Assembly: GCA_951406725.2 (NCBI GenBank)
Contig: CATOCA020000002.1
Span: 124,001-188,000, forward strand
DNA length: 64,000 nucleotides
Reading direction: 5' to 3'
Origin: Octopus vulgaris
Lineage: Eukaryota
The position numbers and the translations under genes are program-made. The notes beneath the pieces were generated by a model that made no database searches, had not been told where the DNA came from, and was given only the letters and a program-made list of their open reading frames with translations. Shown here in pieces: positions 32,848 through 61,230 of this stretch (its first letter is position 1; every line of letters starts with the position of its first letter).

Positions 32848-33397
32848 TACATAAATGCAGTGGACATGGCAACAAATATAGCTCCAATCATACTGTGGTA
32901 AATGACTTCAATTCAATAACAGCTTCAATAGCCTGTAGAAGAAATTAAATAAAAAAGAAAAAAGTAGCATTAAGAATTTGGGCAAAAATTGATCACAAAA
33001 ATTTTTGATAGTTAAATATTGCTATATTTTATGAACACAAGCTAAACTGTAAACCAAATTTACTGAAGAAATAAAAAAGTAATTCGCAAACCTACACATG
33101 GTTAATTCATCTAGAAGTTTTGTTTCTTCCTCAAAGAGGCACAAAAATGTTTTCCAGTTTGTTTTAATTACTTCATCCACAACCCTCATATAAACATTAG
33201 TGGTCAAAGGAACATTAAAAAAATACATAGCAAAAGGAAAAAATTATACGCTCACATACATGGTAAATAAAAATAGATGCAACATGTAAGTGAAAATAAT
33301 TATTTAAATTTTGAATTTTCATTTTTCAAAGTCAGAGTCCTTATAAAAAAAATGTGAAATATACAAATGGGTATGCTATTTTAAGTTCATAGTTGCC

Positions 33398-39764: not shown

Positions 39765-40385
39765 TCTATTCCATATATTATATATATAAAACTGAGAATG
39801 TGTGTCTGTCTGTCTGTGTGTTTCCCTAAAACTTGAGAACTACACAACCAATTTCATTAAAACTTTACACATGCCTTACTTAGGGTCCGGGGAGTGTCAT
39901 CGGCAAAAAATTTTTTTAACCTTTTGCCTAGGGCGAGCCCACAGCAATATTATATCTTCTCCACTATGATTCCCTAAAACTTGAATACTACACAACCAAT
40001 TCCATTCAAATTTTACACATGCCTTACTTAGGGTCCACGTAGTTTCATGGGCAAAAAAAATGTTCAACTTCTTGTCTAGATCGAGCCCATAGCAACATCA
40101 TATCTTCTCCACTATTTCAGTATTACGTGTTAAAAGTGAAACAAAAACGTTTCTCTATTTTATGTCAGATACTTTCACTTTAACAGTAAAAATAATAATA
40201 ACAATTGAATTATATGTAGTAAGTAATAATTAAAATCAAACTAAAGTATAATATAATCGTAACATATCAAAAGTAAAAATAGCAATTGGTATAAAATTGC
40301 ATCAATGATTTGAACTTGAATAAGTGGTTTCACATGAATGGGAATAAATTAAAAATAAAATTAGTGTGCAGAAATGGAATAGTCC
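39765..40385 (+). mobile_element. Helitron-like non-autonomous element, 5' portion, with an internal ~150-bp duplication
   Basis: tc..tatatataaaactgagaatgtgtgtctgtctgtctg start. ccctaaaacttga..ctacacaaccaatt..cttacttagggtcc occurs at ~39824 and ~39971. The exact 5' end is uncertain. Confidence 0.5.
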
Positions 40386-40405
40386 AGATGGATAATAAAA
40401 AATTA

Positions 40406-40478
40406 AATTAAAGAAAAGACTATTGTCTATAAAGTATACAATGTAGAGAAAAAAGAAGATTTGAACACATCGAGGAAA
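40406..40478 (+). pseudogene. 5' part of an older Tx1-like ORF1 fragment interrupted by the array
   Basis: IKEKTIVYKVYNVEK/RFEHIEE (one frameshift in an A run) aligns to EKKRIIYKTYDTTTRMIQTIEE of the autonomous ORF1. Confidence 0.7.
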
Positions 40479-42249
40479 TTTACCCACGTGTGTTGTTATC
40501 TGTGATTAGACGTTGAAATTTTGTTGTGTAAAGTGATTAATATCGCGCGAGGCATTTGCCTCCACGTTTGGAAACCTTCCGAAGAAGGTGAATTGACCCT
40601 CTAGTCATGGCGACTTACGCGGGGGTCACGGGAAAGAATAATAGTGATTTGGCAATAATCGTGAAGGATGTTTTCTTTGAGAAGAGTAAACTCAAAGAAT
40701 ATGAAAAACTATTCAAAAGGGAGGGTGATAGCGTGAAGCTAATCCCCCCGCGAAAGCAAAAGAGGACAAAGAAAACAAGACTGTAACATATAGAACCCAA
40801 GAAAAAAATACAAAGAAACTGGCAAGAGTGGAGATAGCAGAAATTGAAAAATGTCTGGGAGACATAATGGGGAAATCGACCTACGTGAGTAGAGGCAAGA
40901 AATTTGGTACGGTGGAGGTGAGATATGCAACGGAAGAAATTGCAGCCTCACTGGCTACCACTGTACTAAGAGCGGAAACATTTATAATGTGGCCCTCATA
41001 CAAGGGAAGAAGAGGGGTCCGGGTTAAAATCCCGAATATACCCCCAGAAGTAAAAACAGAATGGCTGGCAACAGCTATTCTAGGAGCAGCAGAAGAGGAA
41101 GTGGAGGTGGAATCCTTTAAGGAGTCCAACGTGATAAACTGGAGAGGATATGGGGTGGAACTGTGTTTGATGGCCACAAAAGAGGACATTGAAAGGTTCC
41201 CCTACAGAATAGAAATTGAAGATGAGAAAACCCTCAGTGTAATTGTAGAGGGAAGAAAGCCAAACTGCTACTTGTGCGGGACAAGGGGGCACATTAAAAA
41301 AGAGTGCCCGTTATACGAATTCGTAGCGGAGTGCGAGCAGGAGCTCGAAAAGAAGAATACGGTAAATGAAAAAGAAAACATAGAAAAGGAAACAAAACAA
41401 CAAGAGAAAGGAAATAATAAGTCAATGAAGGAAAAAGAAATAAAAGAAAAGAAAGAAATAGAACCAAAACAGAGTCAGGAAAAGAAAAAGGAAAAAGAAA
41501 CAACAGGAAAAAAACAAGAGAGAGATCAGAACCAAACGAAAAGAAAAGACGGCACACAAAAAGAAAAAGAAAAGGAACATAAAACACGAGAGAAAGATAG
41601 AACAGACAAAGAACCAAAAAGACAAGAGAAGGAAGAGGAAAGAAAAGAAGGCAAAAAGAGAGAAAGAGAGAAACAAAGAGAGGAGAACAAGGAAGAAATA
41701 AGCCCGAAAAGAAAAACGAGGGAAAACGTAGGACGGAAACAAGATCACGGCTTCTACAAGTTAGTAACCTTCCATTTCTGCCCTGAAATGAAAGAATTGA
41801 CAAGTAGTACGGAGGGACATATATGGGTCGACAGGATGACCGATCAGTGGCAGGAGACTGCTCTAATCCCCGAAGAAAGAGTCGCTGAGTTCCTCAGAGC
41901 TGCCGGTGAGAGTGTAACATTTTACACGAGTGTTCGAGTGAGAGAGCGGCTGCCTGAGGGCTCAGTGATAGACTTTAGAGAATTGAAAACTATCATGGAA
42001 TATGTATAGAAATGTGAGAAGAGAGAGAAGAAAGAAGAGAAAAAAGAAAATATTGTGAAATATATGTGACGAAAATGTAACCTCTCGATTCCGGGGATCG
42101 AGTGGGCATTTACATCTCATTGTAAATATTCTTTCATATGTCATTTTTTACTTTTATTTTTTCCTTTTCTTGTCATTCGCTTTCTTATTTTAAGTTCCCC
42201 GATTGTATTGTCCCCTCTATGTTCGCCCCTTGTGGGTAATAATAAAATC
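40479..42249 (+). mobile_element. ORF1-only non-autonomous LINE derivative (HAL1-like), copy 1
   Basis: ATG at 40607, frameshift in a C6 run, ORF ends 42009. RRM-like RGKKFGTVEVR, CCHC knuckle CYLCGTRGHIKKEC and a K/E-rich region; no RT. Bounded by ACATCGAGGAAA. Confidence 0.9.
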
Positions 42250-42261
42250 ACATCGAGGAAA

Positions 42262-43253
42262 TTTACCCACGTGTGTTGTTATCTGTGACTAGACAGTGAA
42301 ATTTTGTTCGGTGTAAATTGATTAATATCGCGCGAGGCGTTTGCCTCCACGTGTGGAAACGTTCCGAAGAAGGTGAATTGACCCTCTAGTCATGGCGACT
42401 TACGCGGGGGTCACGGGAAAAAATAATGATTCGTCGATAATCGTGAAGGATGTTTTCTTTGAGAAGGATAAACTCAAAGAATATGAAAAGCTTTTCAAAA
42501 GGGAGGGTGATAGCGTGAAGCTAATCCCCCCCCCCCCCCCCGCGAAAGCAAAAGAGGACAAAGAAAGCAAGACAGTGACATATAGAACCCAAGACAAAAA
42601 TACGAAGAAGCTGGCTAGAGTGGAGATAGCCGAAATTGAAAAATGTCTGGGAGACATAATGGGGAAATCAACCTACGTGAGTAGAGGCAAGAAATTTGGT
42701 ACGGTGGAGGTGAGATGTGCAACGGAAGAAATTGCAGCCTCACTGGCTACCACTGTACTAAGAGCGGAAAAATTTATAATGTGGCCCTCATACAAGGGAA
42801 GAAGAGGGGTCCGGGTTAAAATCCCGAATATACCCCCAGAAGTGAAAACAGAATGGCTGGCAACAGCTATTCTAGGAGCAGCAGAAGAGGAAGTGGAGGT
42901 GGAATCCTTTAAGGAGTCCAACGCGGTAAACTGGAGAGGATATGGGGTAGAACTGTGTTTGATGGCCACAAAAGAGGACATTGAAAGGTTCCCCTACAGA
43001 ATAGAAATTGAAGATGAAAAAACCCTCAGTGTAATTGTAGAGGGAAGAAAACCAAACTGTTACTTGTGCGGGACAAGGGGGCACATTAAAAAAGAGTGCC
43101 CGTTATACGAATTCGTAGCGGAGTGCGAGCAGGAACCTGAAGAAAAGAAGAATACGGTAAATGAAAAAGAAAACATAGAAAAGGAAACAAAACAACAAGA
43201 GAAAGGAAATAATAAGTCAATGAAGGAAAAAGAAATAAAAGAAAAGAAAGAAA
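42262..43253 (+). mobile_element. ORF1-only element copy 2, 3'-truncated
   Basis: ORF from ATG 42392 is in frame through a C16 run. It is cut at gaaagaaa|tttaccc where copy 3 begins. Confidence 0.9.
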
Positions 43254-45003
43254 TTTACCCACGTGTGTTGTTATCTGTGACTAGACAGTGAAATTTTGTT
43301 CGGTGTAAATTGATTAATATCGCGCGAGGCGTTTGCCTCCACGTGTGGAAATGTTCTGAAGAAGGTGAATTGACCCTCTACGGGAAAAAATAATGATTCG
43401 TCGATAATCGTGAAGGATGTTTTCTTTGAGAAGGATAAACTCAAAGAATATGAAAAGCTTTTCAAAAGGGAGGGTGATAGCGTGAAGCTAATCCCCCCCC
43501 GCGAAAGCAAAAGAGGACAAAGAAAGCAAGACAGTGACATATAGAATCCAAGACAAAAATACGAAGAAGCTGGCTAGAGTGGAGATAGCCGAAATTGAAA
43601 AATGTCTGGGAGACATAATGGGGAAATCAACCTATGTGAGTAGAGGCAAGAAATTTGGTACGGTGGAGGTGAGATGTGCAACGGAAGAAATTGCAGCCTC
43701 ACTGGCTACCACTGTACTAAGAGCGGAAAAATTTATAATGTGGCCCTCATACAAGGGAAGAAGAGGGGTCCGGGTTAAAATCCCGAATATACCCCCAGAA
43801 GTGAAAACAGAATGGCTGGCAACAGCTATTCTAGGAGCAGCAGAAGAGGAAGTGGAGGTGGAATCCTTTAAGGAGTCCAACGCGGTAAACTGGAGAGGAT
43901 ATGGGGTAGAACTGTGTTTGATGGCCACAAAAGAGGACATTGAAAGGTTCCCCTACAGAATAGAAATTGAAGATGAAAAAACCCTCAATGTAATTGTAGA
44001 GGGAAGAAAACCAAACTGTTACTTGTGCGGGACAAGGGGGCACATTAAAAAAGAGTGCCCGTTATACGAATTCGTAGCGGAATGCGAGCAGGAACTTGAA
44101 GAAAAGAAGAATACGGTAAATGAAAAAGAAAACATAGAAAAGGAAACAAAACAACAAGAGAAAGGAAATAATAAGTCAATGAAGGAAAAAGAAATAAAAG
44201 AAAAGAAAGAAATAGAACCAAAACAGAGTCAGGAAAAAAAAAAGGAAAAAGAAACAACAGGAAAAAAACAAGAGAGAGATCAGAATCAAACGAAAAGAAA
44301 AGACGGCACACAAAAAGAAAAAGAAAAGGAACATAAAACACGAGAGAAAGAGAGAACAGACAAAGAACCAAAAAGACAAGAGAAGGAAGGAGAAAGAAAA
44401 GAAGGCAAAAAGAGAGAAAGAGAGAAACAAAGAGAGGAGAACAAGGAAGAAATAAGCCCGAAAAGAAAAATGAAGGAAAACGTAGGACGGAAACAAGATT
44501 ACTGCTTCTACAAGTTAGTAACCTTCCATTTCTGCCCTGAAATGAAAGACTTGACATGTAATACGGAGGGACATATATGGGTCAACAGGATGACCGATCA
44601 GTGGCAGGAGACTGCTCTAATCCCCGAAGAAAGAGTCGCTGAGTTCCTCAGAGCTGCCGGAGAGAGTGTAATATTTTACACGAGTGTTCGAGTGAGAGAG
44701 CGGCTGCCTGAGGGCTCAGTGATGGACTTTAGAGAATTGAAAGCTATTATGGAATATGTATAGAATTGTGAGAACAGAGAGAAGAAAGAAGAGAAAAAAG
44801 AAAATTTTGTGAAATATATGTGACGAAAATGTAACCTCTCGATTCCGGGGATCGAGTGGGCATTTACATCTCATTGTAAATATTCTTTCATATGTCATTT
44901 TTTACTTTTATTTTTTCCTTTTCTTGTCATTCGCTTTCTTATTTTAAGTTCCCCGATTGTATTGTCCCATCTATGTTCGCCCCTTGTGGGTAGTAATAAA
45001 ATC
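43254..45003 (+). mobile_element. ORF1-only element copy 3
   Basis: ORF 43534-44763. A ~25-bp deletion near 43380 removes the ATG. Full 3' terminus present. Confidence 0.9.
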
Positions 45004-45015
45004 ACATCGAGGAAA

Positions 45016-48000
45016 TCAATTTTTTGCGTTATTAGTAAGTTGATATATATTTTTGCTCTCGTACTATTATCTCTGTTATTATATACTGTTGGTCTACCTG
45101 TTTTGTCTATTGTTGTCTAACTGACGAAGTCAGCCTTCGCGCGAAGACTTCGCGTTGGTGTTCCCCCCTCAGTGGGGGAAAACTACAATTAATTTGGATT
45201 TACCAAAGGCTTGTTAAAGCCATTTGTTCAAGATGGAGTCCCCCATCTCTTATTCGCCCGTGACGAGCGAGGATGAATACCCGGCGTTGTCGCCAGGAAA
45301 AAAAGAGGCGTTGTCGCCAAGAAAAAAAGAGGCGTTGTCGCCGAAGAAAAAAGAGGCGGCGTCGCCCAAGAAAATGGAAAAACCAGTACCAGCATCAACT
45401 CCAGCAAAAAAATTCGCTGAAGTGGCTGGGAAAAAGATCAAAAAATAAATATAGAAAATTTTGGAAAATTTGCAGACTGTGTTAAAAAAGAAGGCACAGA
45501 AGTGACTGTGGCCACAAATATACAAAAACATGACGAGATAGAAAAAAAAAGAATAATATTTAAAACTTACGACACAACGACAAAAATGATACAAAAAATC
45601 GAAGAAAAAAAATAGAGTATTGTCTAAAACCTTTTATGGATAAAATAACGTATATAAACAGAGGAAAAAGATACGGCACAGTGGAGGTGCGTTTTACTAC
45701 GGAGGAGATAGCGAAGAAAATATCAATGGAGCCGATCAAAGCGGAAAACATTGTCTTACTACCATTGTATAAAGGAAAAAGGACGTCGAAAATTTCAATG
45801 AACAACATACCGCCAGAGGCAGATGCTGAATGCCTAGTGGCAGCAGTGATGGTAGGTCTGGAGGAAAAAATAAACATCCTCCAGGCCACAGTGGAGGAAG
45901 AGGAGTTCTGGAAAGGGCAGAAAATAGTGATAGCCATTCAGGCAGAAGTGCAAACCCTGGAAGAGATCCCAGAGACTCTTAGGATAAGCGAAGATGAAAG
46001 AGTCACAGTCTTCGTAGAGGGCAGAAAGCCGAGGTGCTTCGGCTGCGGTAAGAAGGGGCATGTAAGGGCGGAATGCCAGCCCCAACCCAAACCGCAGGAA
46101 GCACCTAAGCCAAAAGAAAAAGAAGACAATGTGTCACCAGAAGCAGCGTCAGACGGCCCAGAAGGGAAGACTGAAGGTGTGGAGGTGAGTGACAGCAGAA
46201 CCAGCGGCGGAGGAAAAAAAGAGCGAGGAAAAGATAAATGAGGAGGGGTGGGCAAAAATTATCGGAAAAAAAAAAAGAAAAACGGAAACCACCCCTCCCA
46301 GAGTAATTTTAAAAAAGAAAAAAGAGTCAATAAACTCATATATGGCCGTAAAAGCATCAAATAGCAGACTCGGAAACGTGTTGGCAGCCATGGCCAAAGT
46401 GAAGAAAGTAGAGAAAAAAAATGACTTTGTAATTTACAGAATAGACCGGAAGGATTACGGGCGGATAAAGTCAGAATTCTTCCATGACGTAGGCCCACTT
46501 AGGTTGGATGTGACATCTCCACATATATTCGAGGGCCTACGTCAGACTCCCCCACGAGGCCCAGAAAAAGAGTTAGAGAAGAAGAAAAACCGAACCACTG
46601 ATATAAAGGTAAGTAATGGATTACATTTATGTTGGTTGTTTAAATGTGCGCGGCCTGGGAGCAGGCTGGAAGCAAGGTCGCTTCCTGCATGATATCAGGT
46701 CGCGTAATTTAGATGTTATTGTTGCTACAGAAACCCGGTTAGAGGGGCCAAGAGGTCTACTCCCGCTGTTTGACGGCTACGAGAGTTTTTTCTCTCCTGG
46801 CAGTCCTACAGGCGGGAGTGGGGTGTTGGTCCTATTAAAAAGAAACCGGGTTTCTGAGAAAAAGTTAATTTTTGCAGATCCAGAAGGTAGGCTGGTCGTC
46901 ATGGATTTGACGTTCAGTAATGGTAAAGTTATCAGACTGGTTGCAATTTACGCACCCAACCATACAGGGCAAAGTGATTATTTTCGTGAACTAGAAAACT
47001 TTCTTGGTACTTCGCATTCATTAGTGGTGCTAGGAGACTTTAACACAATTTGCAAAGCGGATGTAGATTATGTTGGCTCGTGTCCAGACAGAAAAGGCAA
47101 CAGTGGCTTCATGGAACTGCTAAGCCGCTTTGAGCTAGCAGATCCTTATAGGCTGGAATTTCCGAACGCTCCATTGTGGACATGGTCAGACAGCGACGGA
47201 TCTTCCAGGTCATATTTAGATAGAATACTAATTAGAAAAGTAGACAGTAAAATAGCTAAGTGTCCACAGTTTTACCCGATCAGCTACAGTGATCATAAAA
47301 TGGTCACTTGTAAGCTTGACATAGATAAGGTTAAAAATAGAGGATCCGGTTACTGGAAACTTAATACGTCCCTTTTGGCGATTAAGGAGTACAAAGACCG
47401 GATTAGGAATATAATTCAGAGGGCACTATCTGGTACCATCATTAATAACAAATGGTGGTACGCCCTCAAACGAGCCATCAAGTTTGAGTCTATTAGATAT
47501 AGCATAGGAGTAGTGGCTAGAGAGGCTAGAAGGGAAACTACTCTAGTTAAGGAATTAGAGGAAGCCATGAAAACTGGCTCTGCGGCTCAGGTGGCGTCCA
47601 AGAGACTGGTGTTAAACCAGCACCTCGAGGCCAAACACATGGGCAGCATTGTCAGGGCTAGAATCCGCCATATGGGATGTGAAGGAATCAACGCCGTGAG
47701 ATGGGCCCGAGTGGTGGAAGCTCAGCATGGTAACGATGCCACGATTCGATCTTTGCCGAACCAACAAGGTGAGTTGATAAACGAACCCGAGGAGATGTGT
47801 GAGGCCTTTCAGGAGCACTTCGCTCAGCTTTTCGGTGAGTGCGGCGGGCTGGATAGGAAGAGGGCCTTTACGGACCTACTCGACGGTCTGCCGCGCTTAT
47901 CGCGGCGAGATACGGAGGGCTGTGAAGGTCCAATCACGCCTGAGGAGGTGGTTGAGGCAATGGCGGACTGCGGCGCGGGCAAGGTGCCGGGTTTGGATGG

Positions 48001-50259
48001 TCTACCCTATGAGTTATATAAGAGTATGCCAGACTTGTTCGGGCACCTACTGGCGGAGGTCTATGCGAACTGGCAGCAGAACGGGCTTATACCCAGATCT
48101 GTGCGCCGGGGAGTAGTGACTCTCGTCAGAAAGGACCCGAGCAAGGGGGAGTGTATTGATAATTTCAGGCCCATCACTCTGCTAAACACAGAGTTGAAGA
48201 TTTTGGCCAAAGTGTTATCGAAAAGATTGGCCGCGTGTCGCGGATGGTCTGATCGGAGGGGCACAGACATGTGCCGTTCCGGGCAGATCCATTCAGGATA
48301 ATCTCCATCTAATGCGGTACACTATAGAGGGGTTTAATAGTGATTCTGGCAAGGGTGGGGCACTGGTCCATTTAGACCAATCTAAAGCTTTTGATAGGGT
48401 CGACCATCGTTACCTGGTATCTGCCCTGGCACAGTTCGGGCTGAGCCTTGGATTCCTCAGGTGGATTATCCAAATTTATGATAACATCGACTCGGTAGTT
48501 CGGGTGAACGGCTTCTTGTCGAAGCCGTTCAAAATCAAACGCTCGGTTCGTCAAGGGTGTCCGCTCTCCCCGCTTTTGTACGTGATGGCTCTTGAGCCAT
48601 TACTGCGAAAACTGAGCGGCATCCCGAGACAGCCAGGTAATGGAAAATCAGTGTCAGCGTACGCGGATGACATCACCATCATCGTAACCGAAATGGACCA
48701 CCTATGTAAAGTAGGCAAGGCCATAGAGGTGTACGAGACGGTGACAGGAGCAAAAGTTAATCGCGAAAAGTCAGTCGGCTTGCAACTCGGCACCTGGAGA
48801 GGCAAGTCGATGCCTCCTGACAGCGTCGTGGGACGTTGGACGGAGGGTCCGATTAAACTGCTAGGGGTCTGGTTCGGTCCAGACCTCCAAATAGAGAAGA
48901 ATTGGGGCGAGGTAACGAGCAAGGTGGCTGCAGTAGCCAAGACCTGGTCTTGGCGGTGGCTATCCCTGAAAGGGAGGGCGGAGGTGGCCAATGTGTTTAT
49001 CGCATCGGTTATCACCTACCGCCTTTCCGTCGTTCCTTGCCCTGATTCGTGGTTGATCAAGTTGGAAAGACAGCTCTTCTACTTCTTGTGGAAGGGCGGG
49101 AAACCACTTGTGAAACGCTCTACTTGCTGTCAACAACCGTTAAAGGGTGGGCTAGGGATGCCTTGGCTGATGATGCGCAGACATGCGCTGAGGTTAAGAC
49201 ATCTGTGGCTCTACCTGGATGGTGAACGGGTGTGGTCTTCGCTAGCAAAACTGATGTTTCCCAAGTTCACTAGTTTCGGTGGATGGGAAACCTGGCTGAA
49301 TCGTAGATCGAAACTTGGTACTTGGTACACGGAGTGTCGCAAGGCTCTCCTGCTATTCCGTCGCTCGGGCAACGCCTGCGGTGGGGGTTCCACCCACATT
49401 CTTCTATAGAGGGTTGGTAGAGGCGGAATGTGAAGATACCTTGGGGGAAACCCTGGGTCTCGACGATAATCAGCTGGCCAGTCTGTTCCGACGTACGTTC
49501 GAGCCGAGGACACCGGACAACTTCCAGAAGTCTCTGGCATGGCAATGCTACAGAGGAGCTCTACCTGTTCGGGATAAACTCGCAAGGCACGGTGGCCAAG
49601 ACAGTCCGATATGTCCAAGATGCGGGCGGGATAGGGAAACCGTCCCGCACGCTATTGTTCATTGTCCGGACGTGTCTGAGGTGTGGGTTTATGCCGAACA
49701 CCTGTTGTCAGGTACACGAAGAGTACAGCTGTCGACTGAGTCGATTACAAAAATTGACCCACCGGATTTCCTCGTGAATGAAGGTAAGTTTCGTTTTCTC
49801 GTTGTAGTAGCAATCGCGAAAGAGGTGATATGGAAGACGAGAATGAAAGGTTTACAGTCAGGCAAGTTCATCTCCGGCCCTGGTTTGATGAATTATTTCA
49901 TCTTTCACCTGAAAAGGAAGATAGGGCTGGAGAGAATATGCCTGACTAGGAGAGTGTATGAAGAACGATGGAAGGATGTAGCACGAAAGTTGCGAGTGAA
50001 AGACACAACATAAATGTAATACCAAGCGCAACCAAAAGTATCAGTGGGGAGGCGGGGCTCGTGGGGTCCGAGCTAAACCCGCACCCACTCCACCCGTAAT
50101 GTTTTCCGGTCTGTCCCATCATCCGATTTCTGTCCATTTATTGTAATTCATGAAAATTTTTAAATTCGATTTATTGTAAAAACCCATTCGTGTGTCTGAC
50201 CCCATCATCAGATTGTATTGTCCCATCTATGTTCGCCCCTTGTGGGTAATAATAAAACA
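45016..50259 (+). mobile_element. Full-length Tx1/L1-group LINE, copy 1
   Basis: ORF1 from 45233 with CCHC CFGCGKKGHVRAEC and frameshifts. ORF2 46616-50013 has frameshifts near 48231 and 49393. Confidence 0.95.
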
Positions 50260-50271
50260 ACATCGAGGAAA

Positions 50272-53200
50272 TCAATTTTTTGCGTTATTAGTAAGTTGAT
50301 ATATATTTTTGCTCTTGTACTATTATCTCTGTTATTATATACTGTTGGTCTACCTGTTTTGTCTATTGTTGTCTAACTGACGAAGTCAGCCTTCGCGCGA
50401 AGACTTCGCGTTGGTGTTCCCCCCTCCGTGGGGGAAAACTACAATTAATTTGGATTTACCAAAGGCTTGTTAAAGCCATTCGTTCAAGATGGAGTCCCCC
50501 ATCTCTTATTCGCCCGTGACGAGCGAGGATGAATACCCGGCGTTGTCGCCAGGAAAAAAAGAGGCGTTGTCGCCAAGAAAAAAAGAGGCGCTGTCGCCGA
50601 AGAAAAAAGAGGCGGCGTCGCCCAAGAAAATGGTAAAACCAGTACCAGCATCAACTCCAGCAAAAAAATTCGCTGAAGTGGCTGGGAAAAAAATTAAAAA
50701 AATTAACGTGGACAACCTGGGAAAATTTGCAGACTGTGTAAAAAAAGAAGGCACAGAAGTGACTGTGGCCACAAACTTACAAAAACATGACGAGATAGAA
50801 AAAAAAAGAATAATATATAAAACTTACGACACAACGACAAGAATGATCCAAACAATCGAAGAAAAAAAGTAGAGTTTTGTCTAAAACCTTTTATGGATAA
50901 AATAACGTATATAAACAGAGGAAAAAGATACGGCACAGTGGAGGTGCGTTTTACTACGGAGGAGACAGCGAAGAAACTATCAATGGAGCCAATCAAAGCG
51001 GAAAACATTGTCTTACTACCATTGTATAAAGGAAAAAGGACGTCGAAAATTTCAATGAACAACATACCGCCAGAGGCAGATGCTGAATGTCTGGTGGCAG
51101 CAGTGATGGTAGGCCTGGAGGAAAAAATAAACATCCTCCAGGCCACAGTGGAGGAAGAGGAGTTTTGGAAAGGGCAAAAAATAGTGATAGCCATTCAGGC
51201 GGAGGTGCAAACACTGGAAGAAATTCCAGAAACGGTAAAGATTAGTGAAGACGAGAAAATAACAGTTTTCGTGGAGGGCAGGAAGCCGAGGTGCTTCGGC
51301 TGCGGTAAGAAGGGGCATGTAAGGGCGGAATGCCACCCCAACCCAAACCGCAGGAAGCACCTAAGCCAAAAGGAAAAAGAAGACAATGTGTCACCAGAAG
51401 CAGCGTCAGACGGCCCAGAAGGGAAGACTGAAGGTGTGGAGGTGATGGTAACAGCAGAACCAGCGGCGGAGGAAAAAAAGAGCGAGGAAAAGATAAATGA
51501 GGAGGGGTGGGCAAAAATTATCGGAAAAAAAAAAAGAAAAACGGAAACCACCCCTCCCAGAGTAATTTTAAAAAAGAAAAAAGAGTCAATGAACTCATAT
51601 ATGGCCGTAAAAGCATCAAATAGCAGACTCGGAAACGTGTTGGCAGCCATGGCCAAAGTGAAGAAAGTAGAGAAAAAAATGACTTTGTAATTTACAGAAT
51701 AGACCGGAAGGATTACGGGCGGATAAAGTCAGAATTCTTCCATGACGTAGGCCCACTTAGATTGGATGTGACATCTCCACATATATTCGAGGGCCTACGT
51801 CAGACTCCCCCATGAGGCCCAGAAAAAAAAGAGTTAGAAGAACAAGAGAAAACCGAACCACTGATATAAGGTAAGTAATGGATTACATTTATGTTGGTTG
51901 TTTAAATGTGCGCGGCCTGGGAGCAGGCTGGAAGCAAGGTCGCTTCCTGCATGATATCAGGTCGCGTAATTTAGATGTTATTGTTGCTACAGAAACCCGG
52001 TTAGAGGGGCCAAGAGGTCTACTCCCGCTGTTTGACGGCTACGAGAGTTTTTTCTCTCCTGGCAGTCCTACAGGCGGGAGTGGGGTGTTGGTCCTATTAA
52101 AAAGAAACCGGGTTTCTGAGAAAAAGTTAATTTTTGCAGATCCAGAAGGTAGGCTGGTCGTCATGGATTTGACGTTCAGTAATGGTAAAGTTATCAGACT
52201 GGTTGCAATTTACGCACCCAACCATACAGGGCAAAGTGATTATTTTCGTGAACTAGAAAACTTTCTTGGTACTTCGCATTCATTAGTGGTGCTAGGAGAC
52301 TTTAACACAATTTGCAAAGCGGATGTAGATTGTGTTGGCTTGCGTCCAGATAGAAAAGGCTTCATGGAACTGCTAAGCTGCTTTGAGCTAGCAGATCCTT
52401 ATAGGCTGGAATTTCCGAACGCTCCATTGTGGACATGGTCAAACAGCGACGGATCTTCCAGGTCATATTTAGATAGAATACTAATTAGAAAAGTAGACAG
52501 TAAAATAGCTAAGTGTCCACAGTTTTACCCGATCAGCTACAGTGATCATAAAATGGTCACTTGTAAGCTTGACATAGATAAGGTTAAAAATAGAGGATCC
52601 GGTTACTGGAAACTTAATACGTCCCTTTTGGCGATTAAGGAGTACAAAGACCGGATTAGGAATATAATTCAGAGGGCACTATCTGGTACCATCATTAATA
52701 ACAAATGGTGGTACGCCCTCAAACGAGCCATCAAGTTTGAGTCTATTAGATATAGCATAGGAGTAGTGGCTAGAGAGGCTAGAAGGGAAACTACTCTAGT
52801 TAAGGAATTAGAGGAAGCCATGAAAACTGGCTCTGCGGCTCAGGTGGCGTCCAAGAGACTGGTGTTAAACCAGCACCTCGAGGCCAAACACATGGGCTGC
52901 ATTGTCAGGGCTAGAATCCGTCATATGGGATGTGAAGGAATCAACGCCGTGAGATGGGCCCGAGTGGTGGAAGCTCAGCATGGTAACGATGCCACGATTC
53001 GATCTTTGCCGAACCAACAAGGTGAGTTGATAAACGAACCCGAGGAGATGTGTGAGGCCTTTCAGGAGCACTTCGCTCAGCTTTTCGGTGAGTGCGGCGG
53101 ACTGGATAGGAGGAGGGCCTTTACGGACCTACTCGACGGGCTGCCGCGCTTATCGCGGCGAGATGCGGAGGGCTGTGAAGGGCCAATCACGCTTGAGGAG

Positions 53201-55508
53201 GTGGTTGAGGCAATGGCGGATTGCGGCGCGGGCAAGGCGCCGGGTTTGGATGGTCTACCCTATGAGTTATATAAGAGTATGCCAGACTTGTTCGGGCACC
53301 TACTGGCGGAGGTCTATGCGAATTGCCAGCAGAACGGGCTTATACCCAGATCTGTGCGCCGGGGAGTAGTGACTCTCGTCAGAAAGGACCCGAGCAAGGG
53401 GGAGTGCATTGATAATTTCAGGCCCATCACTCTGCTAAACACAGAGTTGAAGATTTTGGCCAAAGTGTTATCGAAAAGATTGGCGCGTGTCGCGGATGGT
53501 CTGATCGGAGGGGCACAGACATGTGCCGTTCCGGGCAGATCCATTCAGGATAATCTCCATCTAATGCGGTACACTATAGAGGGGTTTAATAGTGATTCTG
53601 GCAAGGGTGGGGCACTGGTCCATTTAGACCAATCTAAAGCTTTTGATAGGGTCGACCATCGTTACCTGGTATCTGCCCTGGCACAGTTCGGGCTGAGCCT
53701 TGGCTTCCTCAGGTGGATTATCCAAATTTATGATAACATCGACTCGGTAGTTCGGGTGAACGGCTTCTTGTCGAAGCCGTTCAAAATCAAACGCTCGGTT
53801 CGTCAAGGGTGTCCGCTCTCCCCGCTTTTGTACGTGATGGCTCTTGAGCCATTACTGCGAAAACTGAGCGGCATCCCGAGACAGCCAGGTAATGGAAAAT
53901 CAGTGTCAGCGTACGCGGATGACATCACCATCATCGTAACCGAAATGGACCACCTATGTAAAGTAGGCAAGGCCATAGAGGTTTACGAGACGGTGACAGG
54001 AGCAAAAGTTAATCGCGAAAAGTCAGTCGGCTTGCAACTCGGCACCTGGAGAGGCAAGTCGATGCCTCCTGACAGCGTCGTGGGACGTTGGACGGAGGGT
54101 CCGATTAAACTGCTAGGGGTCTGGTTCGGTCCAGACCTCCAAATAGAGAAGAATTGGGGCGAGGTAACGAGCAAGGTGGCTGCAGTAGCCAAGACCTGGT
54201 CTTGGCGGTGGCTATCCCTGAAAGGGAGGGCGGAGGTGGCCAATGTGTTTATCGCATCGGTTATCACCTACCGCCTTTCCGTCGTTCCTTGCCCTGATTC
54301 GTGGTTGATCAAGTTGGAAAGACAGCTCTTCTACTTCTTGTGGAAGGGCGGGAAACCACTTGTGAAACGCTCTACTTGCTGTCAACAACCGTTAAAGGGT
54401 GGGCTAGGGATGCCTTGGCTGATGATGCGCAGACATGCGCTGAGGTTAAGACATCTGTGGCTCTACCTGGATGGTGAACGGGTGTGGTCTTCGCTAGCAA
54501 AACTGATGTTTCCCAAGTTCACTAGTTTCGGTGGATGGGAAACCTGGCTGAATCGTAGATCGAAACTTGGTACTTGGTACACGGAGTGTCGCAAGGCTCT
54601 CCTGCTATTCCGTCGCTCGGGCAACGCCTGCGGTGGGGGTTCCACCACATTCTTCTATAGAGGGTTGGTAGAGGCGGAATGTGAAGATACCTTGGGGGAA
54701 ACCCTAGGTCTCGACGATAATCAGCTGGCCAGTCTGTTCCGACGTACGTTCGAGCCGAGGACACTGGACAACTTCCAGAAGTCTCTGGCATGGCAATGCT
54801 ACAGAGGAGCTCTACCTGTTCGGGATAAACTCGCAAGGCACGGTGGCCAAGACAGTCCGATATGTCCAAGATGCGGGCGGGATAGGGAAACCGTCCCGCA
54901 CGCTATTGTTCATTGTCCGGACGTGTCTGAGGTGTGGGTTTATGCCGAACACCTGTTGTCAGGTACACGAAGAGTACAGCTGTCGACTGAGTCGATTACA
55001 AAAATTGACCCACCGGATTTCCTCGTGAATGAAGGTAAGTTTCGTTTTCTCGTTGTAGTAGCAATTGCGAAAGAGGTGATATGGAAGACGAGAATGAAAG
55101 GTTTACAGTCAGGCAAGTTCATCTCCGGCCCTGGTTTGATGAATTATTTCATCTTTCACCTGAAAAGGAAGATAGGGCTGGAGAGAATATGCCTGACTAG
55201 GAGAGTGTATGAAGAACGATGGAAGGATGTAGCACGAAAGTTGCGAATGAAAGTTACAACATAAATGTAATACCAAGTGCAACCAAAAGTATCAGTGGGG
55301 AGGCGGGGCTCGTGGGGTCCGAGCTAAACCCGCACCCACTCCACCCGTAATGTCTTCCGGTCTGTCCATCACTCGATTTTTGTCCATTTATTGTAATTCA
55401 TGAAAATTTTAAATTCGATTTATTGTAAAAACCCATTCGTGTGTCTGACCCCATCATCAGATTGTATTGTCCCATATTTGTTCGCCCCTTGTGGGTAATA
55501 ATAAAACA
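50272..55508 (+). mobile_element. Full-length Tx1/L1-group LINE, copy 2
   Basis: ORF1 from 50489 is frameshifted mainly in homopolymer runs. ORF2 is intact. Confidence 0.95.
51878..55264 (+). CDS. Intact LINE ORF2: APE endonuclease, reverse transcriptase, C-terminal CCHC
   Basis: 1128 aa. LNVRGL, ATET, LGDFN, YLDRIL, SDH; GYWKLN; FRPITLLN, LDQSKAFDRV, RQGCPLSPLLY, YADD; GGLG; CPRC..ETVPHAIVHC. Confidence 0.95.
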   Translation: MDYIYVGCLNVRGLGAGWKQGRFLHDIRSRNLDVIVATETRLEGPRGLLPLFDGYESFFSPGSPTGGSGVLVLLKRNRVSEKKLIFADPEGRLVVMDLTFSNGKVIRLVAIYAPNHTGQSDYFRELENFLGTSHSLVVLGDFNTICKADVDCVGLRPDRKGFMELLSCFELADPYRLEFPNAPLWTWSNSDGSSRSYLDRILIRKVDSKIAKCPQFYPISYSDHKMVTCKLDIDKVKNRGSGYWKLNTSLLAIKEYKDRIRNIIQRALSGTIINNKWWYALKRAIKFESIRYSIGVVAREARRETTLVKELEEAMKTGSAAQVASKRLVLNQHLEAKHMGCIVRARIRHMGCEGINAVRWARVVEAQHGNDATIRSLPNQQGELINEPEEMCEAFQEHFAQLFGECGGLDRRRAFTDLLDGLPRLSRRDAEGCEGPITLEEVVEAMADCGAGKAPGLDGLPYELYKSMPDLFGHLLAEVYANCQQNGLIPRSVRRGVVTLVRKDPSKGECIDNFRPITLLNTELKILAKVLSKRLARVADGLIGGAQTCAVPGRSIQDNLHLMRYTIEGFNSDSGKGGALVHLDQSKAFDRVDHRYLVSALAQFGLSLGFLRWIIQIYDNIDSVVRVNGFLSKPFKIKRSVRQGCPLSPLLYVMALEPLLRKLSGIPRQPGNGKSVSAYADDITIIVTEMDHLCKVGKAIEVYETVTGAKVNREKSVGLQLGTWRGKSMPPDSVVGRWTEGPIKLLGVWFGPDLQIEKNWGEVTSKVAAVAKTWSWRWLSLKGRAEVANVFIASVITYRLSVVPCPDSWLIKLERQLFYFLWKGGKPLVKRSTCCQQPLKGGLGMPWLMMRRHALRLRHLWLYLDGERVWSSLAKLMFPKFTSFGGWETWLNRRSKLGTWYTECRKALLLFRRSGNACGGGSTTFFYRGLVEAECEDTLGETLGLDDNQLASLFRRTFEPRTLDNFQKSLAWQCYRGALPVRDKLARHGGQDSPICPRCGRDRETVPHAIVHCPDVSEVWVYAEHLLSGTRRVQLSTESITKIDPPDFLVNEGKFRFLVVVAIAKEVIWKTRMKGLQSGKFISGPGLMNYFIFHLKRKIGLERICLTRRVYEERWKDVARKLRMKVTT

Positions 55509-55520
55509 ACATGGAGGAAA

Positions 55521-58500
55521 TCAATTTTTTGCGTTTATTAGTAAGTTAATATATTTTTGCTCTCGTACTATTATCTCTGTTATTATATACTGTTGGTCTA
55601 CCTGTTTTGTCTATTGTTGTCTAACTGACGAAGTCAGACTTCGCGTTGGTGTTCCCCCCTCCGTGGGGGAAAACTACAATTAATTTGGATTTACCAAAGG
55701 CTTGTTAAAGCCATTTGTTCAAAATGGAGTCCCCCATCACTTATTCGCCCGTGACGAGCGAGGATGAATACCCGGCGTTGTCGCCAAGTAAAAAAGAGGC
55801 GTTGTCGCCAAGAAAAAAAGAGGCGCTGTCGCCGAAGAAAAAAGAGGCGGCGTCGCCCAAGAAAATGGTAAAACCAGTACCAGCATCAACTCCAGCAAAA
55901 AAATTCGCTGAAGTGGCTGGGAAAAAATTAAAAAAATTAACGTGGACAACCTGGGAAAACATGCAGACTGTGAAAAAAGAGGGCACAGAAGTAACCGTGG
56001 CTTCAAACGCCAAAATACAGAGGATATTTCGAATAGGAGAATAATCTATAAGACATTCAGTATAACAAACAGAGCAATCCAAAAAATAGAAGAAAAAAGA
56101 TTGAAAACTGCTTAAAACCAATAATGGACAAAATTACGTATATCAATCGAGGGAAGAAATACGGCACAGTGGAGGTGAGATTCACGTCAGAGGAGGTAGC
56201 AAAGAAGCTATCCATGGAACCCATAAAAGCGGAAATATTGTCTACTACCATTGTATAAAGGAAAAAGGACGTCAAAATCACAATGAACAACATCCCGCCA
56301 GAAGCGGATGCGAATGTCTGGTGGCAGCAGTTATGGTAGGCCTGGAGGAAAAAATAAACATCCTCCAGGCCACAGTAGAGAAGAAGAATTCTGGAAAGGG
56401 CAAAAGATAATAATAGCCATTCAAGCAGAGGTGCAAACCCTGGAAGAGATTCCAGAGACTCTTAAAGATAAGCGAAGATGAAAAGTCACAGTCTTCGTAG
56501 AGGGCAGAAAGCCGAGGTGCTTCGGCTGCGGTAAGAAGGGGCATGTAAGGGCGGAATGCCAACCCCAACCCAAACCGCAGGAAGCACCTAAGCCAAAAGG
56601 AAAAGAAGACAATGTGTCACCAGAAGCAGCGTCAGACGGCCCAGAAGGGAAGACTGAAGGTGTGGAGGTGATGGTGACAGCAGAACCAGCGGCGGAGGAA
56701 AAAAAGAGCGAGGAAAAGATAAATGAGGAGGGGTGGGCAAAAATTATCGGAAAAAAAAAAAGAAAAACGGAAACCACCCCTCCCAGAGTAATTTTAAAAA
56801 AGAAAAAAGAGTCAATAAACTCATATATGGCCGTAAAAGCATCAAATAGCAGACTCGGAAACGTGTTGGCAGCCATGGCCAAAGTGAAGAAAGTAGAGAA
56901 AAAAATGACTTTGCAATTTACAGAATAGACCGGAAGGATTACGGGCGGATAAAGTCAGAATTCTTCCATGACGTAGGCCCACTTAGGTTGGATGTAACAT
57001 CTCCACATATATTCGAGGGCCTACGTCAGACTCCCCCACGAGGCCCAGAAAAAAAGAGAAGAAGAAGAAAAACCGAACCACTGATATAAAGGTAAGTAAT
57101 GGATTACATTTATGTTGGTTGTTTAAATGTGCGCGGCCTGGGAGCAGGCTGGAAGCAAGGTCGCTTCCTGCATGATATCAGGTCGCGTAATTTAGATGTT
57201 ATTGTTGCTACAGAAACCCGGTTAGAGGGGCCAAGAGGTCTACTCCCGCTGTTTGACGGCTACGAGAGTTTTTTCTCTCCTGGCAGTCCTACAGGCGGGA
57301 GTGGGGTGTTGGTCCTATTAAAAAGAAACCGGGTTTCTGAGAAAAAGTTAATTTTTGCAGATCCAGAAGGTAGGCTGGTCGTCATGGATTTGACGTTCAG
57401 TAATGGTAAAGTTATCAGACTGGTTGCAATTTACGCACCCAACCATACAGGGCAAAGTGATTATTTTCGTGAACTAGAAAACTTTCTTGGTACTTCGCAT
57501 TCATTAGTGGTGCTAGGAGACTTTAACACAATTTGCAAAGCGGATGTAGATTGTGTTGGCTCGTGTCCAGATAGAAAAGGCAACAGTGGCTTCATGGAAC
57601 TGCTAAGCCGCTTTGAGCTAGCAGATCCTTATAGGCTGGAATTTCCGAACGCTCCATTGTGGACATGGTCAAACAGCGACGGATCTTCCAGGTCATATTT
57701 AGATAGAATACTAATTAGAAAAGTAGACAGTAAAATAGCTAAGTGTCCACAGTTTTACCCGATCAGCTACAGTGATCATAAAATGGTCACTTGTAAGCTT
57801 GACATAGATAAGGTTAAAAATAGAGGATCCGGTTACTGGAAACTTAATACGTCCCTTTTGGCGATTAAGGAGTACAAAGACCGGATTAGGAATATAATTC
57901 AGAGGGCACTATCTGGTACCATCATTAATAACAAATGGTGGTACGCCCTCAAACGAGCCATCAAGTTTGAGTCTATTAGATATAGCATAGGAGTAGTGGC
58001 TAGAGAGGCTAGAAGGGAAACTACTCTAGTTAAGGAATTAGAGGAAGCCATGAAAACTGGCTCTGCGGCTCAGGTGGCGTCCAAGAGACTGGTGTTAAAC
58101 CAGCACCTCGAGGCCAAACACATGGGCTGCATTGTCAGGGCTAGAATCCGTCATATGGGATGTGAAGGAATCAACGCCGTGAGATGGGCCCGAGTGGTGG
58201 AAGCTCAGCATGGTAACGATGCCACGATTCGATCTTTGACGAACCAACAAGGTGAGTTGATAAACGAACCCGAGGAGATGTGTGAGGCCTTTCAGGAGCA
58301 CTTCGCTCAGCTTTTCGGTGAGTGCGGCGGACTGGATAGGAGGAGGGCCTTTACGGACCTACTCGACGGTCTGCCGCGCTTATCGGGGCGAGATGCGGAG
58401 GGCTGTGAAGGGCCAATCACGCCTGAGGAGGTGGTTGAGGCAATGGCGGACTGCGGCGCGGGCAAGGCGCCGGGTTTGGATGGTCTACCCTATGAGTTAT

Positions 58501-60739
58501 ATAAGAGTATGCCAGACTTGTTCGGGCACCTACTGGCGGAGGTCTATGCGAACTGGCAGCAGAACGGGCTTATACCCAGATCTGTGCGCTGGGGAGTAGT
58601 GACTCTCGTCAGAAAGGACCCGAGCAATGGGGGAGTGCATTGATAATTTCAGGCCCATCACTCTGCTAAACACAGAGTTGAAGATTTTGGCCAAAGTGTT
58701 ATCGAAAAGATTGGCGCGTGTCGCGGATGGTCTGATCGGAGGGGCACAGACATGTGCCGTTCCGGGCAGATCCATTCAGGATAATCTCCATCTAATGCGG
58801 TACACTATAGAGGGGTTTAATAGTGATTCTGGCAAGGGTGGGGCACTGGTCCATTTAGACCAATCTAAAGCTTTTGATAGGGTCGACCATCGTTACCTGG
58901 TATCTGCCCTGGCACAGTTCGGGCTGAGCCTTGGCTTCCTCAGGTGGATTATCCAAATTTATGATAACATCGACTCGGTAGTTCGGGTGAACGGCTTCTT
59001 GTCGAAGCCGTTCAAAATCAAACGCTCGGTTCGTCAAGGGTGTCCGCTCTCCCCGCTTTTGTACGTGATGGCTCTTGAGCCATTACTGCGAAAACTGAGC
59101 GGCATCCCGAGACAGCCAGGTAATGGAAAATCAGTGTCAGCGTACGCGGATGACATCACCATCATCGTAACCGAAATGGACCACCTATGTAAAGTAGGCA
59201 AGGCCATAGAGGTTTACGAGACGGTGACAGGAGCAAAAGTTAATCGCGAAAAGTCAGTCGGCTTGCAACTCGGCACCTGGAGAGGCAAGTCGATGCCTCC
59301 TGACAGCGTCGTGGGACGTTGGACGGAGGGTCCGATTAAACTGCTAGGGGTCTGGTTCGGTCCAGACCTCCAAATAGAGAAGAATTGGGGCGAGGTAACG
59401 AGCAAGGTGGCTGCAGTAGCCAAGACCTGGTCTTGGCGGTGGCTATCCCTGAAAGGGAGGGCGGAGGTGGCCAATGTGTTTATCGCATCGGTTATCACCT
59501 ACCGCCTTTCCGTCGTTCCTTGCCCTGATTCGTGGTTGATCAAGTTGGAAAGACAGCTCTTCTACTTCTTGTGGAAGGGCGGGAAACCACTTGTGAAACG
59601 CTCTACTTGCTGTCAACAACCGTTAAAGGGTGGGCTAGGGATGCCTTGGCTGATGATGCGCAGACATGCGCTGAGGTTAAGACATCTGTGGCTCTACCTG
59701 GATGGTGAACGGGTGTGGTCTTCGCTAGCAAAACTGATGTTTCCCAAGTTCACTAGTTTCGGTGGATGGGAAACCTGGCTGAATCGTAGATCGAAACTTG
59801 GTACTTGGTACACGGAGTGTCGCAAGGCTCTCCTGCTATTCCGTCGCTCGGGCAACGCCTGCGGTGGGGGTTCCACCACATTCTTCTATAGAGGGTTGGT
59901 AGAGGCGGAATGTGAAGATACCTTGGGGGAAACCCTAGGTCTCGACGATAATCAGCTGGCCAGTCTGTTCCGACGTACGTTCGAGCCGAGGACACTGGAC
60001 AACTTCCAGAAGTCTCTGGCATGGCAATGCTACAGAGGAGCTCTACCTGTTCGGGATAAACTCGCAAGGCACGGTGGCCAAGACAGTCCGATATGTCCAA
60101 GATGCGGGCGGGATAGGGAAACCGTCCCGCACGCTATTGTTCATTGTCCGGACGTGTCTGAGGTGTGGGTTTATGCCGAACACCTGTTGTCAGGTACACG
60201 AAGAGTACAGCTGTCGACTGAGTCGATTACAAAAATTGACCCACCGGATTTCCTCGTGAATGAAGGTAAGTTTCGTTTTCTCGTTGTAGTAGCAATTGCG
60301 AAAGAGGTGATATGGAAGACGAGAATGAAAGGTTTACAGTCAGGCAAGTTCATCTCCGGCCCTGGTTTGATGAATTATTTCATCTTTCACCTGAAAAGGA
60401 AGATAGGGCTGGAGAGAATATGCCTGACTAGGAGAGTGTATGAAGAACGATGGAAGGATGTAGCACGAAAGTTGCGAGTGAAAGATACAACATAAATGTA
60501 ATACCAAGTGCAACCAAAAGTATCAGTGGGGAGGCGGGGCTCGTGGGGTCCGAGCTAAACCCGCACCCACTCCACCCGTAATGTCTTCCGGTCTGTCCAT
60601 CATTCGATTTCTGTCCATTTATTGTAATTCATGAAAATTTTTAAACCCGATTTATTGTAAAAACCCATTCGTGTGTCTGACCCCATCATCAGATTGTATT
60701 GTCCCATCTATGTAGCCCCTAGTGGGTAATAATAAAACA
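55521..60739 (+). mobile_element. Full-length Tx1/L1-group LINE, copy 3
   Basis: ORF1 has a diverged N-terminal segment and several frameshifts. ORF2 57099-60495 has one frameshift near 58627. Confidence 0.95.
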
Positions 60740-60751
60740 ACATGGAGGAAA

Positions 60752-61050
60752 GCACCTTCGAAAAGTGTCTTGGTGCGACTATGAAAGGTATCTAATCAGA
60801 GGCGGTAAATTTGCCACAATAGAAGCAAGGTTCGAGTCAACGGAGCGTGCAAGGGAGTACTCGACTCGAACTTGCAAAGTGGAAATATTTTATTTTTACC
60901 TTTATATGAGGAGTAGATAGGACGTCCCGGGAAAAAATTTAACCCCCCCCCCCCCCCGAAGTAGAGGTAGGCTGGATTGTAGCCACACTTCTATACAAGA
61001 AGGAGGACACGATACAATTGATCGAAATTACAAGAGACGGGCTAACAATT
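60752..61050 (+). pseudogene. 3' continuation of the older Tx1-like ORF1 fragment
   Basis: STFEKCLGATMK..RGGKFATIEARFESTERA..GNILFLPLY..PPEVEVGWIVATLL aligns to EIEKCLGDIMGK..RGKKFGTVEVRYATEEIA..PPEVKTEWLATAIL. Confidence 0.8.
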
Positions 61051-61188
61051 CCAGTCTGTTATATATTTTGAGTGTTGTTATCACTAGCGATATCAAGATA
61101 TAACTTTGTATTTTGTATTTTATGTGTAGATGTATATATATAGATGTACATGTAATATGTACACATATATATACACATATATACATGC

Positions 61189-61230
61189 ACTAGCACTATG
61201 ACCCGGCAACGACGGGTCTTTAATGCTAGT
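61189..61230 (+). mobile_element. Helitron-like 3' terminus
   Basis: Hairpin gacccg-gcaacga-cgggtc (61200-61218), 7 nt upstream of CTAG|T (61226-61230). Confidence 0.6.

What the first reader, a model, noticed from the sequence alone, without database searches (positions are those of the whole stretch)
40406..61050. The target site lies inside ORF1 of a third, related retrotransposon
Seen: removing the array and one 12-mer gives KTIVYKVYNVEK/RFEH-IEE-STFEKCLGATMK..RGGKFATIEARF..LPLY..PPEVEVGWIVATLL. This is colinear with the autonomous ORF1 (RIIYKTYDTTTRMIQT-IEE-KKVEFCL..RGKRYGTVEVRF..LPLY..PPE) and with the ORF1-only element (..AEIEKCLG..). The 12-mer spans the H-I-E-E codons. Inference: a LINE that specifically inserts into and disrupts the ORF1 of a sister family, a possible transposon-on-transposon parasitism.
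Basis: partly seen in the sequence, partly recalled or inferred. Interest (0 to 1): 0.9.

Follow-up and report, generated by a model that had tools for sequence, protein, structure and literature searches.

The report
Retrotransposons nesting in a Helitron's fossil
In this octopus genome a family of retrotransposons inserts again and again at one spot inside about a thousand copies of a different mobile element (a Helitron) that carries a dead fragment of a related retrotransposon's first gene; the spot is likely chosen by the retrotransposon's own DNA-cutting enzyme, so this is a parasite of a Helitron rather than an attacker of its sister family.

Summary
In detail: the flanks of the 20-kb array are one interrupted ORF1 piece of a third L1/Tx1-type family. 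But that piece is not in a LINE. It is a truncated fossil (5' UTR plus about 175 codons) carried by a non-autonomous Helitron (A|TC...hairpin-CTAG|T; 968 exact empty sites). Of 100 listed autonomous LINE 3' ends, 67 join the Helitron at this base and 20 are tandem joints. The real third family exists as stand-alone full-length, decayed LINEs; 24 of 24 copies that cover the site are uninterrupted. Sister subfamilies use three other sites in the same Helitron, and one uses an unrelated repeat; each target class has its own version of one endonuclease loop. Arrays are ordered, younger copies on the 5' side (0 of 20,000 shuffles). Tx1 elements that target other transposons and stack in tandem are known; I found no report of a Helitron target.

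The parts
39775..40477 (+). Left arm of a non-autonomous Helitron (short form, about 1.2 kb when empty); 5' end worn in this copy (A|TC in most others), (GTCT)n, 148-bp tandem duplication
   Evidence: Homology to empty copies starts at 39778; 41 of 63 copies show ATC(T/C)(T/C) just before the common start; start position approximate
40394..40477 (+). 5' part of the fossil ORF1 fragment, ending in the left copy of the target duplication (40467-40477)
40478..42249 (+). ORF1-only (HAL1-like) non-autonomous element, unit 1; 425-aa open frame with CCHC zinc knuckle
42261..43252 (+). ORF1-only unit 2, 3' part missing, joined to unit 3 at a GAAAT microhomology without the 12-mer
43253..45003 (+). ORF1-only unit 3
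45015..50259 (+). Autonomous-type L1/Tx1 LINE, unit 1 (ORF1, ORF2 with frameshifts)
50271..55508 (+). Autonomous-type LINE, unit 2; ORF2 51875-55264 open (APE endonuclease, RT, zf-RVT), ORF1 frameshifted
55520..60739 (+). Autonomous-type LINE, unit 3; most decayed ORF1, likely the first insertion
   Evidence: order inferred from other arrays
60740..60750 (+). Right copy of the target duplication (canonical ACATGGAGGAA); internal copies at 42250, 45004, 50260, 55509
60751..61047 (+). 3' part of the fossil ORF1 fragment, frameshifted, ending before the zinc knuckle
61048..61058 (+). Second target site (site C, ATTCCAGTCTG), empty here, used by a sister subfamily elsewhere
61200..61229 (+). Helitron 3' end: 19-bp palindrome (61200-61218), 11 nt to the CTAG terminus, followed by T
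   Evidence: z = -4.8; 68 of 75 copies end CTAG|T

Best explanation
A young L1/Tx1-type LINE family and its ORF1-only partner insert at one fixed base inside a multicopy non-autonomous Helitron, within a dead ORF1 fragment that the Helitron took from a third LINE family, likely because the LINE's endonuclease recognises that sequence. History (inferred): the Helitron acquired about 0.8 kb of the third family's 5' end (5' UTR and about 175 codons), by capture or by an insertion that later lost its 3' part; it multiplied as a long form and then as deleted short forms; the LINE then used these copies as a harmless, abundant landing site. Mechanism (inferred from junctions): bottom-strand nick at GAAC|ACATGG, target-primed reverse transcription, top-strand cut 11-12 bp further on. 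The duplication rebuilds a complete site only on the 5' side, next to the Helitron's left arm, so later copies are added there and the array grows 3' to 5' in time order (shown statistically). Sister subfamilies with a changed endonuclease loop after the YAP motif use other sites; that the loop causes the change is untested.
For: Helitron ends on the target: 51 of 55 arms, 68 of 75 end CTAG|T, hairpin, same layout as Helraiser (PMC4778049). 968 exact empty sites, control 0. LINE 3' ends: 25 of 30 at the Helitron site, 2 tandem, 1 odd, 2 elsewhere; 67 + 20 of 100 listed of 133 (hand count). Predicted 7-bp-longer in-frame form found in a longer Helitron with 5' UTR and start of ORF1. Third family found as stand-alone ORF1+ORF2 LINEs, 72-82% aa to the fossil, uninterrupted. 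Helitron arms 7.0% apart, LINE ORF2 about 1%: target older than invader. Rightmost joints canonical, leftmost variants match their neighbour; units of different arrays interleave on a tree; position follows lineage, 0 of 20,000 shuffles. Endonuclease loop follows target class: NHTGQ site B, NQKGQ site C 2 of 2, S(S/L)SSG site A 4 of 4, NSKKGQ other repeat 3 of 3. Tx1L endonuclease nicks its own target (PMC1950540).
Against: No biochemical test. Published Tx1L/TRAS1 endonucleases read only about 10 bp (PMC1919474), too little by itself for this enrichment; four sites in one 1.8-kb Helitron is more than independent drift of an enzyme would easily give. Loop and target both follow descent, so their concordance is not independent evidence; one copy (L068) has NSTGQ at an odd site. 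13 of 100 ends are off-Helitron. Filled sites are mostly ATGG (58 of 67), so the CTGG-like third family would be hit rarely anyway: 0 of 24 does not exclude occasional hits. The pattern forced the first two target bases. Six or more near-identical units in one array (C7) may be local duplication. No autonomous Helitron was sought.
Confidence: 0.85

Rival explanations
1. RNA-assisted homing: transcripts that carry Helitron flank (read-through at the 3' end, target-like bases at the 5' end) pair with or tether to Helitron copies, so the lineage stays on this Helitron while the endonuclease fixes only the exact base. Compatible with, and additional to, the main reading.
For: Four sites in one Helitron are used by related elements. 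Left junctions are rewritten with multi-base variants that recur at unlinked loci, as if carried by the RNA. Off-target sites begin with the same 4-5 bases as each subfamily's main site.
Against: No off-target copy examined carried a Helitron arm behind its 3' end. A subfamily 97.5% identical in ORF2 left the Helitron for an unrelated repeat. The shared bases are in both copies of the duplication, so enzyme preference explains them too.
Confidence: 0.3
2. One reading: the LINE evolved to cut ORF1 of the third family and inactivate it; the Helitron copies are a decoy that later soaked up the insertions.
For: The site is ORF1-derived, and some stand-alone third-family copies have it with only 1-2 mismatches; that family is decayed in all 6 loci read in full.
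Against: 24 of 24 covering copies are uninterrupted; 0 of 14 off-Helitron insertions are at that place in an ORF1; the preferred variant ATGG was not seen in third-family copies; sister subfamilies use non-ORF sites; the invader is younger than the Helitron burst, which is younger than the fossil's split from its family (16-27% nt).
Confidence: 0.07
3. One old insertion was spread passively, by Helitron transposition with cargo or by unequal crossing-over, with no repeated targeting.
For: Most filled Helitrons keep both ends; a block of C7 units is 0-0.06% apart.
Against: Arrays differ in number, type and order; units interleave across loci; both ATGG and CTGG Helitron variants and long and short forms are filled and keep their local variant.
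Confidence: 0.04

Closest known systems
Tx1L of Xenopus laevis (target Tx1D, a non-autonomous piggyBac)
   Same: APE-type two-ORF LINE that inserts at a fixed site in a non-autonomous DNA transposon (PMC4494074, PMC1950540 passages)
   Different: Host here is a rolling-circle Helitron; the site lies in a captured piece of a related LINE; several subfamilies use different sites in it
Crocodilian Tx1-Mar / SINEU-3, Tx1-9_AMi, Tx1-8_Crp
   Same: Tx1 families preferring Mariner, Harbinger or LTR elements; non-autonomous partners share the target; tandem copies sandwich a TSD (PMC4494074, passages and section 15)
   Different: No Helitron target named there; partner here is an ORF1-coding element; arrays reach 23 units and are time-ordered
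Drosophila R1 tandem array
   Same: Repeated insertion at one site gives head-to-tail copies separated by the duplication (bioRxiv 10.1101/158386, passages)
   Different: rDNA target; expansion ascribed to unequal exchange; here mostly independent insertions from several source lineages with 3'-to-5' order
HAL1 (half-L1)
   Same: Non-autonomous derivative encoding ORF1 only (PMC5753468, passage)
   Different: Shares a sequence-specific target and 3' tail with its driver; its ORF1 is from a different subfamily than the driver's
Non-autonomous Helitrons with captured fragments (Helraiser/Helibat type ends)
   Same: 5'-TC, 19-bp palindrome 11 nt before CTAG-3', A|T target (PMC4778049, passages)
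   Different: The cargo is a LINE 5' end, and it has become the landing site of related LINEs

Membership tests
Helitron (non-autonomous) | 3' CTAG followed by T | tested here: met
   68 of 75 copies; window 61226-61230
Helitron (non-autonomous) | GC-rich hairpin about 11 nt before the 3' end | tested here: met
   19-bp palindrome, z = -4.8
Helitron (non-autonomous) | 5' TC after A | tested here: met
   41 of 63 copies; the rest, and the window's copy, run into TA repeats or are mutated
Helitron (non-autonomous) | No target duplication, shown at an empty orthologous site | not tested
   No TIR or TSD seen by eye in flanks; no orthologous empty locus compared
Helitron (non-autonomous) | RepHel-coding partner with the same ends | not tested
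L1/Tx1 group LINE | ORF2 with APE endonuclease, RT and C-terminal zinc motif | tested here: met
   Pfam Exo_endo_phos, RVT_1, zf-RVT; best solved match L1 ORF2p E 2e-65 against R2 2e-24
L1/Tx1 group LINE | ORF1 with CCHC zinc knuckle; TSD; 5' truncation | tested here: met
   zf-CCHC in ORF1-only units, CxxCxxxGHxxxxC in autonomous ORF1; 10-18-bp TSDs and truncated copies
Tx1 clade (strict) | RT phylogeny grouping with named Tx1 references | not testable with these tools
   No named Tx1 ORF2 came back; the Tx1 label rests on architecture and target specificity (own knowledge)
Target-specific Tx1 family (Kojima's rule: one sequence type in more than 20% of flanks) | Share of flanks in one repeat | tested here: met
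   25 of 30; 67 of 100, 87 with tandem joints; rule from PMC4494074
Target-specific Tx1 family | Endonuclease nicks the target in vitro | not testable with these tools
   Bench test
LINE that inactivates a sister LINE's ORF1 | Insertions in stand-alone copies of the sister family | tested here: not met
   0 of 24 covering loci; 0 of 14 off-Helitron insertions; small samples

The most novel reading that the evidence does not exclude
An octopus LINE lineage has specialised on one Helitron and re-aims within it: swaps of 2-4 residues in one endonuclease loop move otherwise 90-96% identical enzymes between unrelated 11-20-bp targets, possibly with flank-carrying RNA keeping them on the Helitron, and each filled Helitron stores its visitors in time order. 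That would be a natural allelic series for reprogramming an APE-type retrotransposon's target.
Probability: 0.3. Interest if true: 0.75.

Novelty: new variant of a known kind. Interest (0 to 1): 0.55.

Why it matters
How site-specific APE retrotransposons change targets is an open question with engineering value; loop grafts on L1 did not transfer specificity (PMC1950540, passages). Here near-identical natural enzymes (10 differences in 250 aa between two classes) have different, well-mapped targets, which makes the question directly testable. The system also shows three layers of nesting (LINE fossil in Helitron, LINEs in the fossil, ORF1-only hitchhikers on the LINEs), and the ordered arrays date subfamily turnover without a clock.

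Tried and rejected
Self-BLAST without masking was swamped by TA repeats. A first 3'-end pattern mostly caught a SINE (83,735 hits). Word-based protein searches found no close relative of the fossil (none; other ORF1s), and the 50%-cluster search gave at most 50-56% among its best hits; 58 best in-frame or long-form genome hits of 60 fetched were Helitron copies without a downstream knuckle or ORF2 (2 had no anchor). I took this as 'donor extinct' until a query reaching past the fossil's end found the family. Single-sequence fold of the endonuclease failed (mean pLDDT 32) and was not used. Protein atlas gave only generic names. Rfam: no hit in the window or three third-family loci. Sequencing runs: no RNA holder listed. 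Contigs of four runs under four organism codes cover both LINE end and Helitron arm and show the empty site as loose ends; two show the LINE end joined to site C; no listed contig bridges site B, so conservation of that junction was not shown. Earlier findings: none in this genome or by sequence. The Tx1L endonuclease paper was not held.
Full report
Observation. Between 40478 and 60739 lie three ORF1-only units and three autonomous-type LINE units on the + strand, separated by ACAT(C/G)GAGGAA at five joints and one microhomology joint. ORF2 has APE endonuclease, RT and zf-RVT domains and is closest to L1 ORF2p among solved structures. Named homologues of the ORF1s are all Octopus proteins. The genome holds 2.8 Gb. 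The flanks match a multicopy repeat: of the 30 best hits, 21 are empty and join left flank, one target copy and right flank exactly; 9 are filled at the same base. Their frames align in order with both ORF1s.

What the target is. Homology among empty copies runs from about 39778 to 61230 in window terms and then stops. The ends are those of a Helitron: ATC(T/C)(T/C) before the shared start in 41 of 63 copies, CTAG|T in 68 of 75, and a 19-bp palindrome 11 nt before the end, the layout given for Helraiser (PMC4778049, passages). 51 of 55 target arms, filled or empty, end this way. There are 968 exact empty 24-mers, control 0. In the short form the ORF1 piece is frameshifted in empty copies too. 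I predicted from the alignment that an in-frame version would be 7 bp longer; 4 of 6 pattern hits were exactly that and lay in a longer Helitron of about 1.8 kb with a LINE-like 5' UTR and the start of ORF1 (1,527 candidates). A natural long copy matches the autonomous ORF1 at E 3e-22 at genome size, reversed control nil. None of 58 anchored long or in-frame copies, of 60 fetched, continues into the zinc knuckle or ORF2.

The third family. A query that reaches past the fossil's end found stand-alone relatives: 72-82% aa and 73-84% nt identical to the fossil for the best six, matching only Helitron positions 809-1592. Of 6 read in full, 5 carry a following ORF2 (about 45-65% aa to the invader's), all broken. 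24 of 25 loci cover the homologous site and none is interrupted.

Targeting. From a DNA search with the LINE's 3' end alone: 25 of 30 at the Helitron site, 2 tandem, 1 odd, 2 elsewhere. From a pattern: 133 ends, of 100 listed 67 at the site, 20 tandem joints, 13 elsewhere (counted by hand; the pattern forces two target bases). About 90 such junctions against at least 968 empty sites suggests roughly a tenth filled. Filled sites are 58 ATGG, 8 CTGG, 1 other, while ATGG is about 40% of empty sites (383, slightly different pattern); this is confounded with Helitron form. Fourteen off-Helitron copies start with ACAT, ACCT or ACAC, several with 10-18-bp duplications, and none lies at this place in an ORF1. 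Helitron arms differ by 7.0%, LINE ORF2s by about 1%: the target came first.

Array growth. In 9 arrays the rightmost joint, where fetched, is canonical and variants appear leftwards; the outer left joint matches its neighbour in 6 of 8 arrays where it was read, differing in C3 and C19. 51 ORF1-only units from different loci interleave on a tree, except a near-identical block in the 23-unit C7 array. On a label-free axis, position follows lineage (C7 left out: 0 of 20,000 shuffles; two small single-lineage arrays run the other way); left-type units are 1.0% apart, right-type 2.4%. New copies are thus added on the 5' side, where the Helitron's left arm and the duplication rebuild the site. Variants that recur at unlinked loci suggest the incoming cDNA rewrites the left copy (inference).

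Sister subfamilies. Site A near the start of the captured UTR (3 of 100 listed filled; five loci read), site C at the fossil's 3' break, and site D (2 of 100) lie in the same Helitron; further ORF1-only families end at site B. A subfamily 97.5% identical in ORF2 uses a different repeat. The loop after the YAP motif follows the class: NHTGQ (B), NQKGQ (C, 2 of 2), S(S/L)SSG (A, 4 of 4), NSKKGQ (other, 3 of 3), while the minor-groove hairpin is nearly constant. It aligns with L1's YAPN-TGAP; that it faces the major groove is recalled from L1/APE1 structures, not shown here. Shared descent could explain the concordance.

Known systems. Tx1L targets a piggyBac, and crocodilian Tx1 families target Mariner, Harbinger and LTR elements, with tandem SINEU-3 copies around a TSD (PMC4494074, passages and section 15). 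Tx1L endonuclease nicks its own target (PMC1950540, passages). Tandems by double insertion are known for R1 (10.1101/158386, passages). ORF1-only derivatives are known as HAL1 (PMC5753468, passage). The Octopus vulgaris repeat paper lists 13 active L1-Tx1 and 8 Helitron families and has no occurrence of 'target' or 'nested' (PMC13282606, part 1 of 3 and term search; supplements not read). Nine searches (listings only, apart from the papers named) showed no Helitron-targeting LINE; Repbase and most subscription journals are not covered.

Verdict. Shown: Helitron host, fossil ORF1, site-specific insertion, ordered arrays, several sites, uninterrupted third-family copies in a small sample. Inferred: endonuclease recognition, nick positions, how the fossil was acquired, the loop's role. 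New variant of a known kind; interest 0.55.

Noticed in passing
G000, first 100 hits on C1: A SINE-like repeat of about 184 bp, often tandem, shares the LINE's 3' tail motif; 83,735 exact hits. Likely mobilised by a related LINE.
   Followed up: no
L226:2100-2330 and 7650-7700; L228; L229: The third family is itself site-specific: three copies sit at the same point, with a duplication beginning TCTTTCGACT, just behind a CCAAT/TATA promoter-like repeat of unknown kind (no Rfam hit).
   Followed up: partly
L165-L167, L184: A subfamily with loop NSKKGQ inserts at AACTGAATACTC; three of four loci share one non-Helitron repeat.
   Followed up: partly
L061, L062, L068, L170: At least three more ORF1-only families (about 1.6-1.9 kb, intact ORF1s of about 460-500 aa) stack in the same Helitron arrays.
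   Followed up: partly
L160-L164: A still shorter Helitron form has lost site B by deletion and is filled at site C.
   Followed up: partly
L136-L142 (G000:C7:100.087-100.132 Mb): 45-kb array of 22 ORF1-only units plus one autonomous unit in a single Helitron; a nascent satellite.
   Followed up: yes
window 30970-32907 (-): 645-aa open frame without Pfam hit, with a CxxC...CxxC pair; probably a host exon, so the array may lie in or beside a gene.
   Followed up: no
window 33398-34820 and 37724-39159: 1.4-kb inverted repeat, 98.7% identical, 2.9 kb apart.
   Followed up: no
window 32-746: 3' part of another, diverged L1/Tx1 ORF2 (44-53% aa).
   Followed up: no
window 16781-18480 and 23019-24765: Two 73%-identical copies of another decayed RT-bearing repeat.
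   Followed up: no
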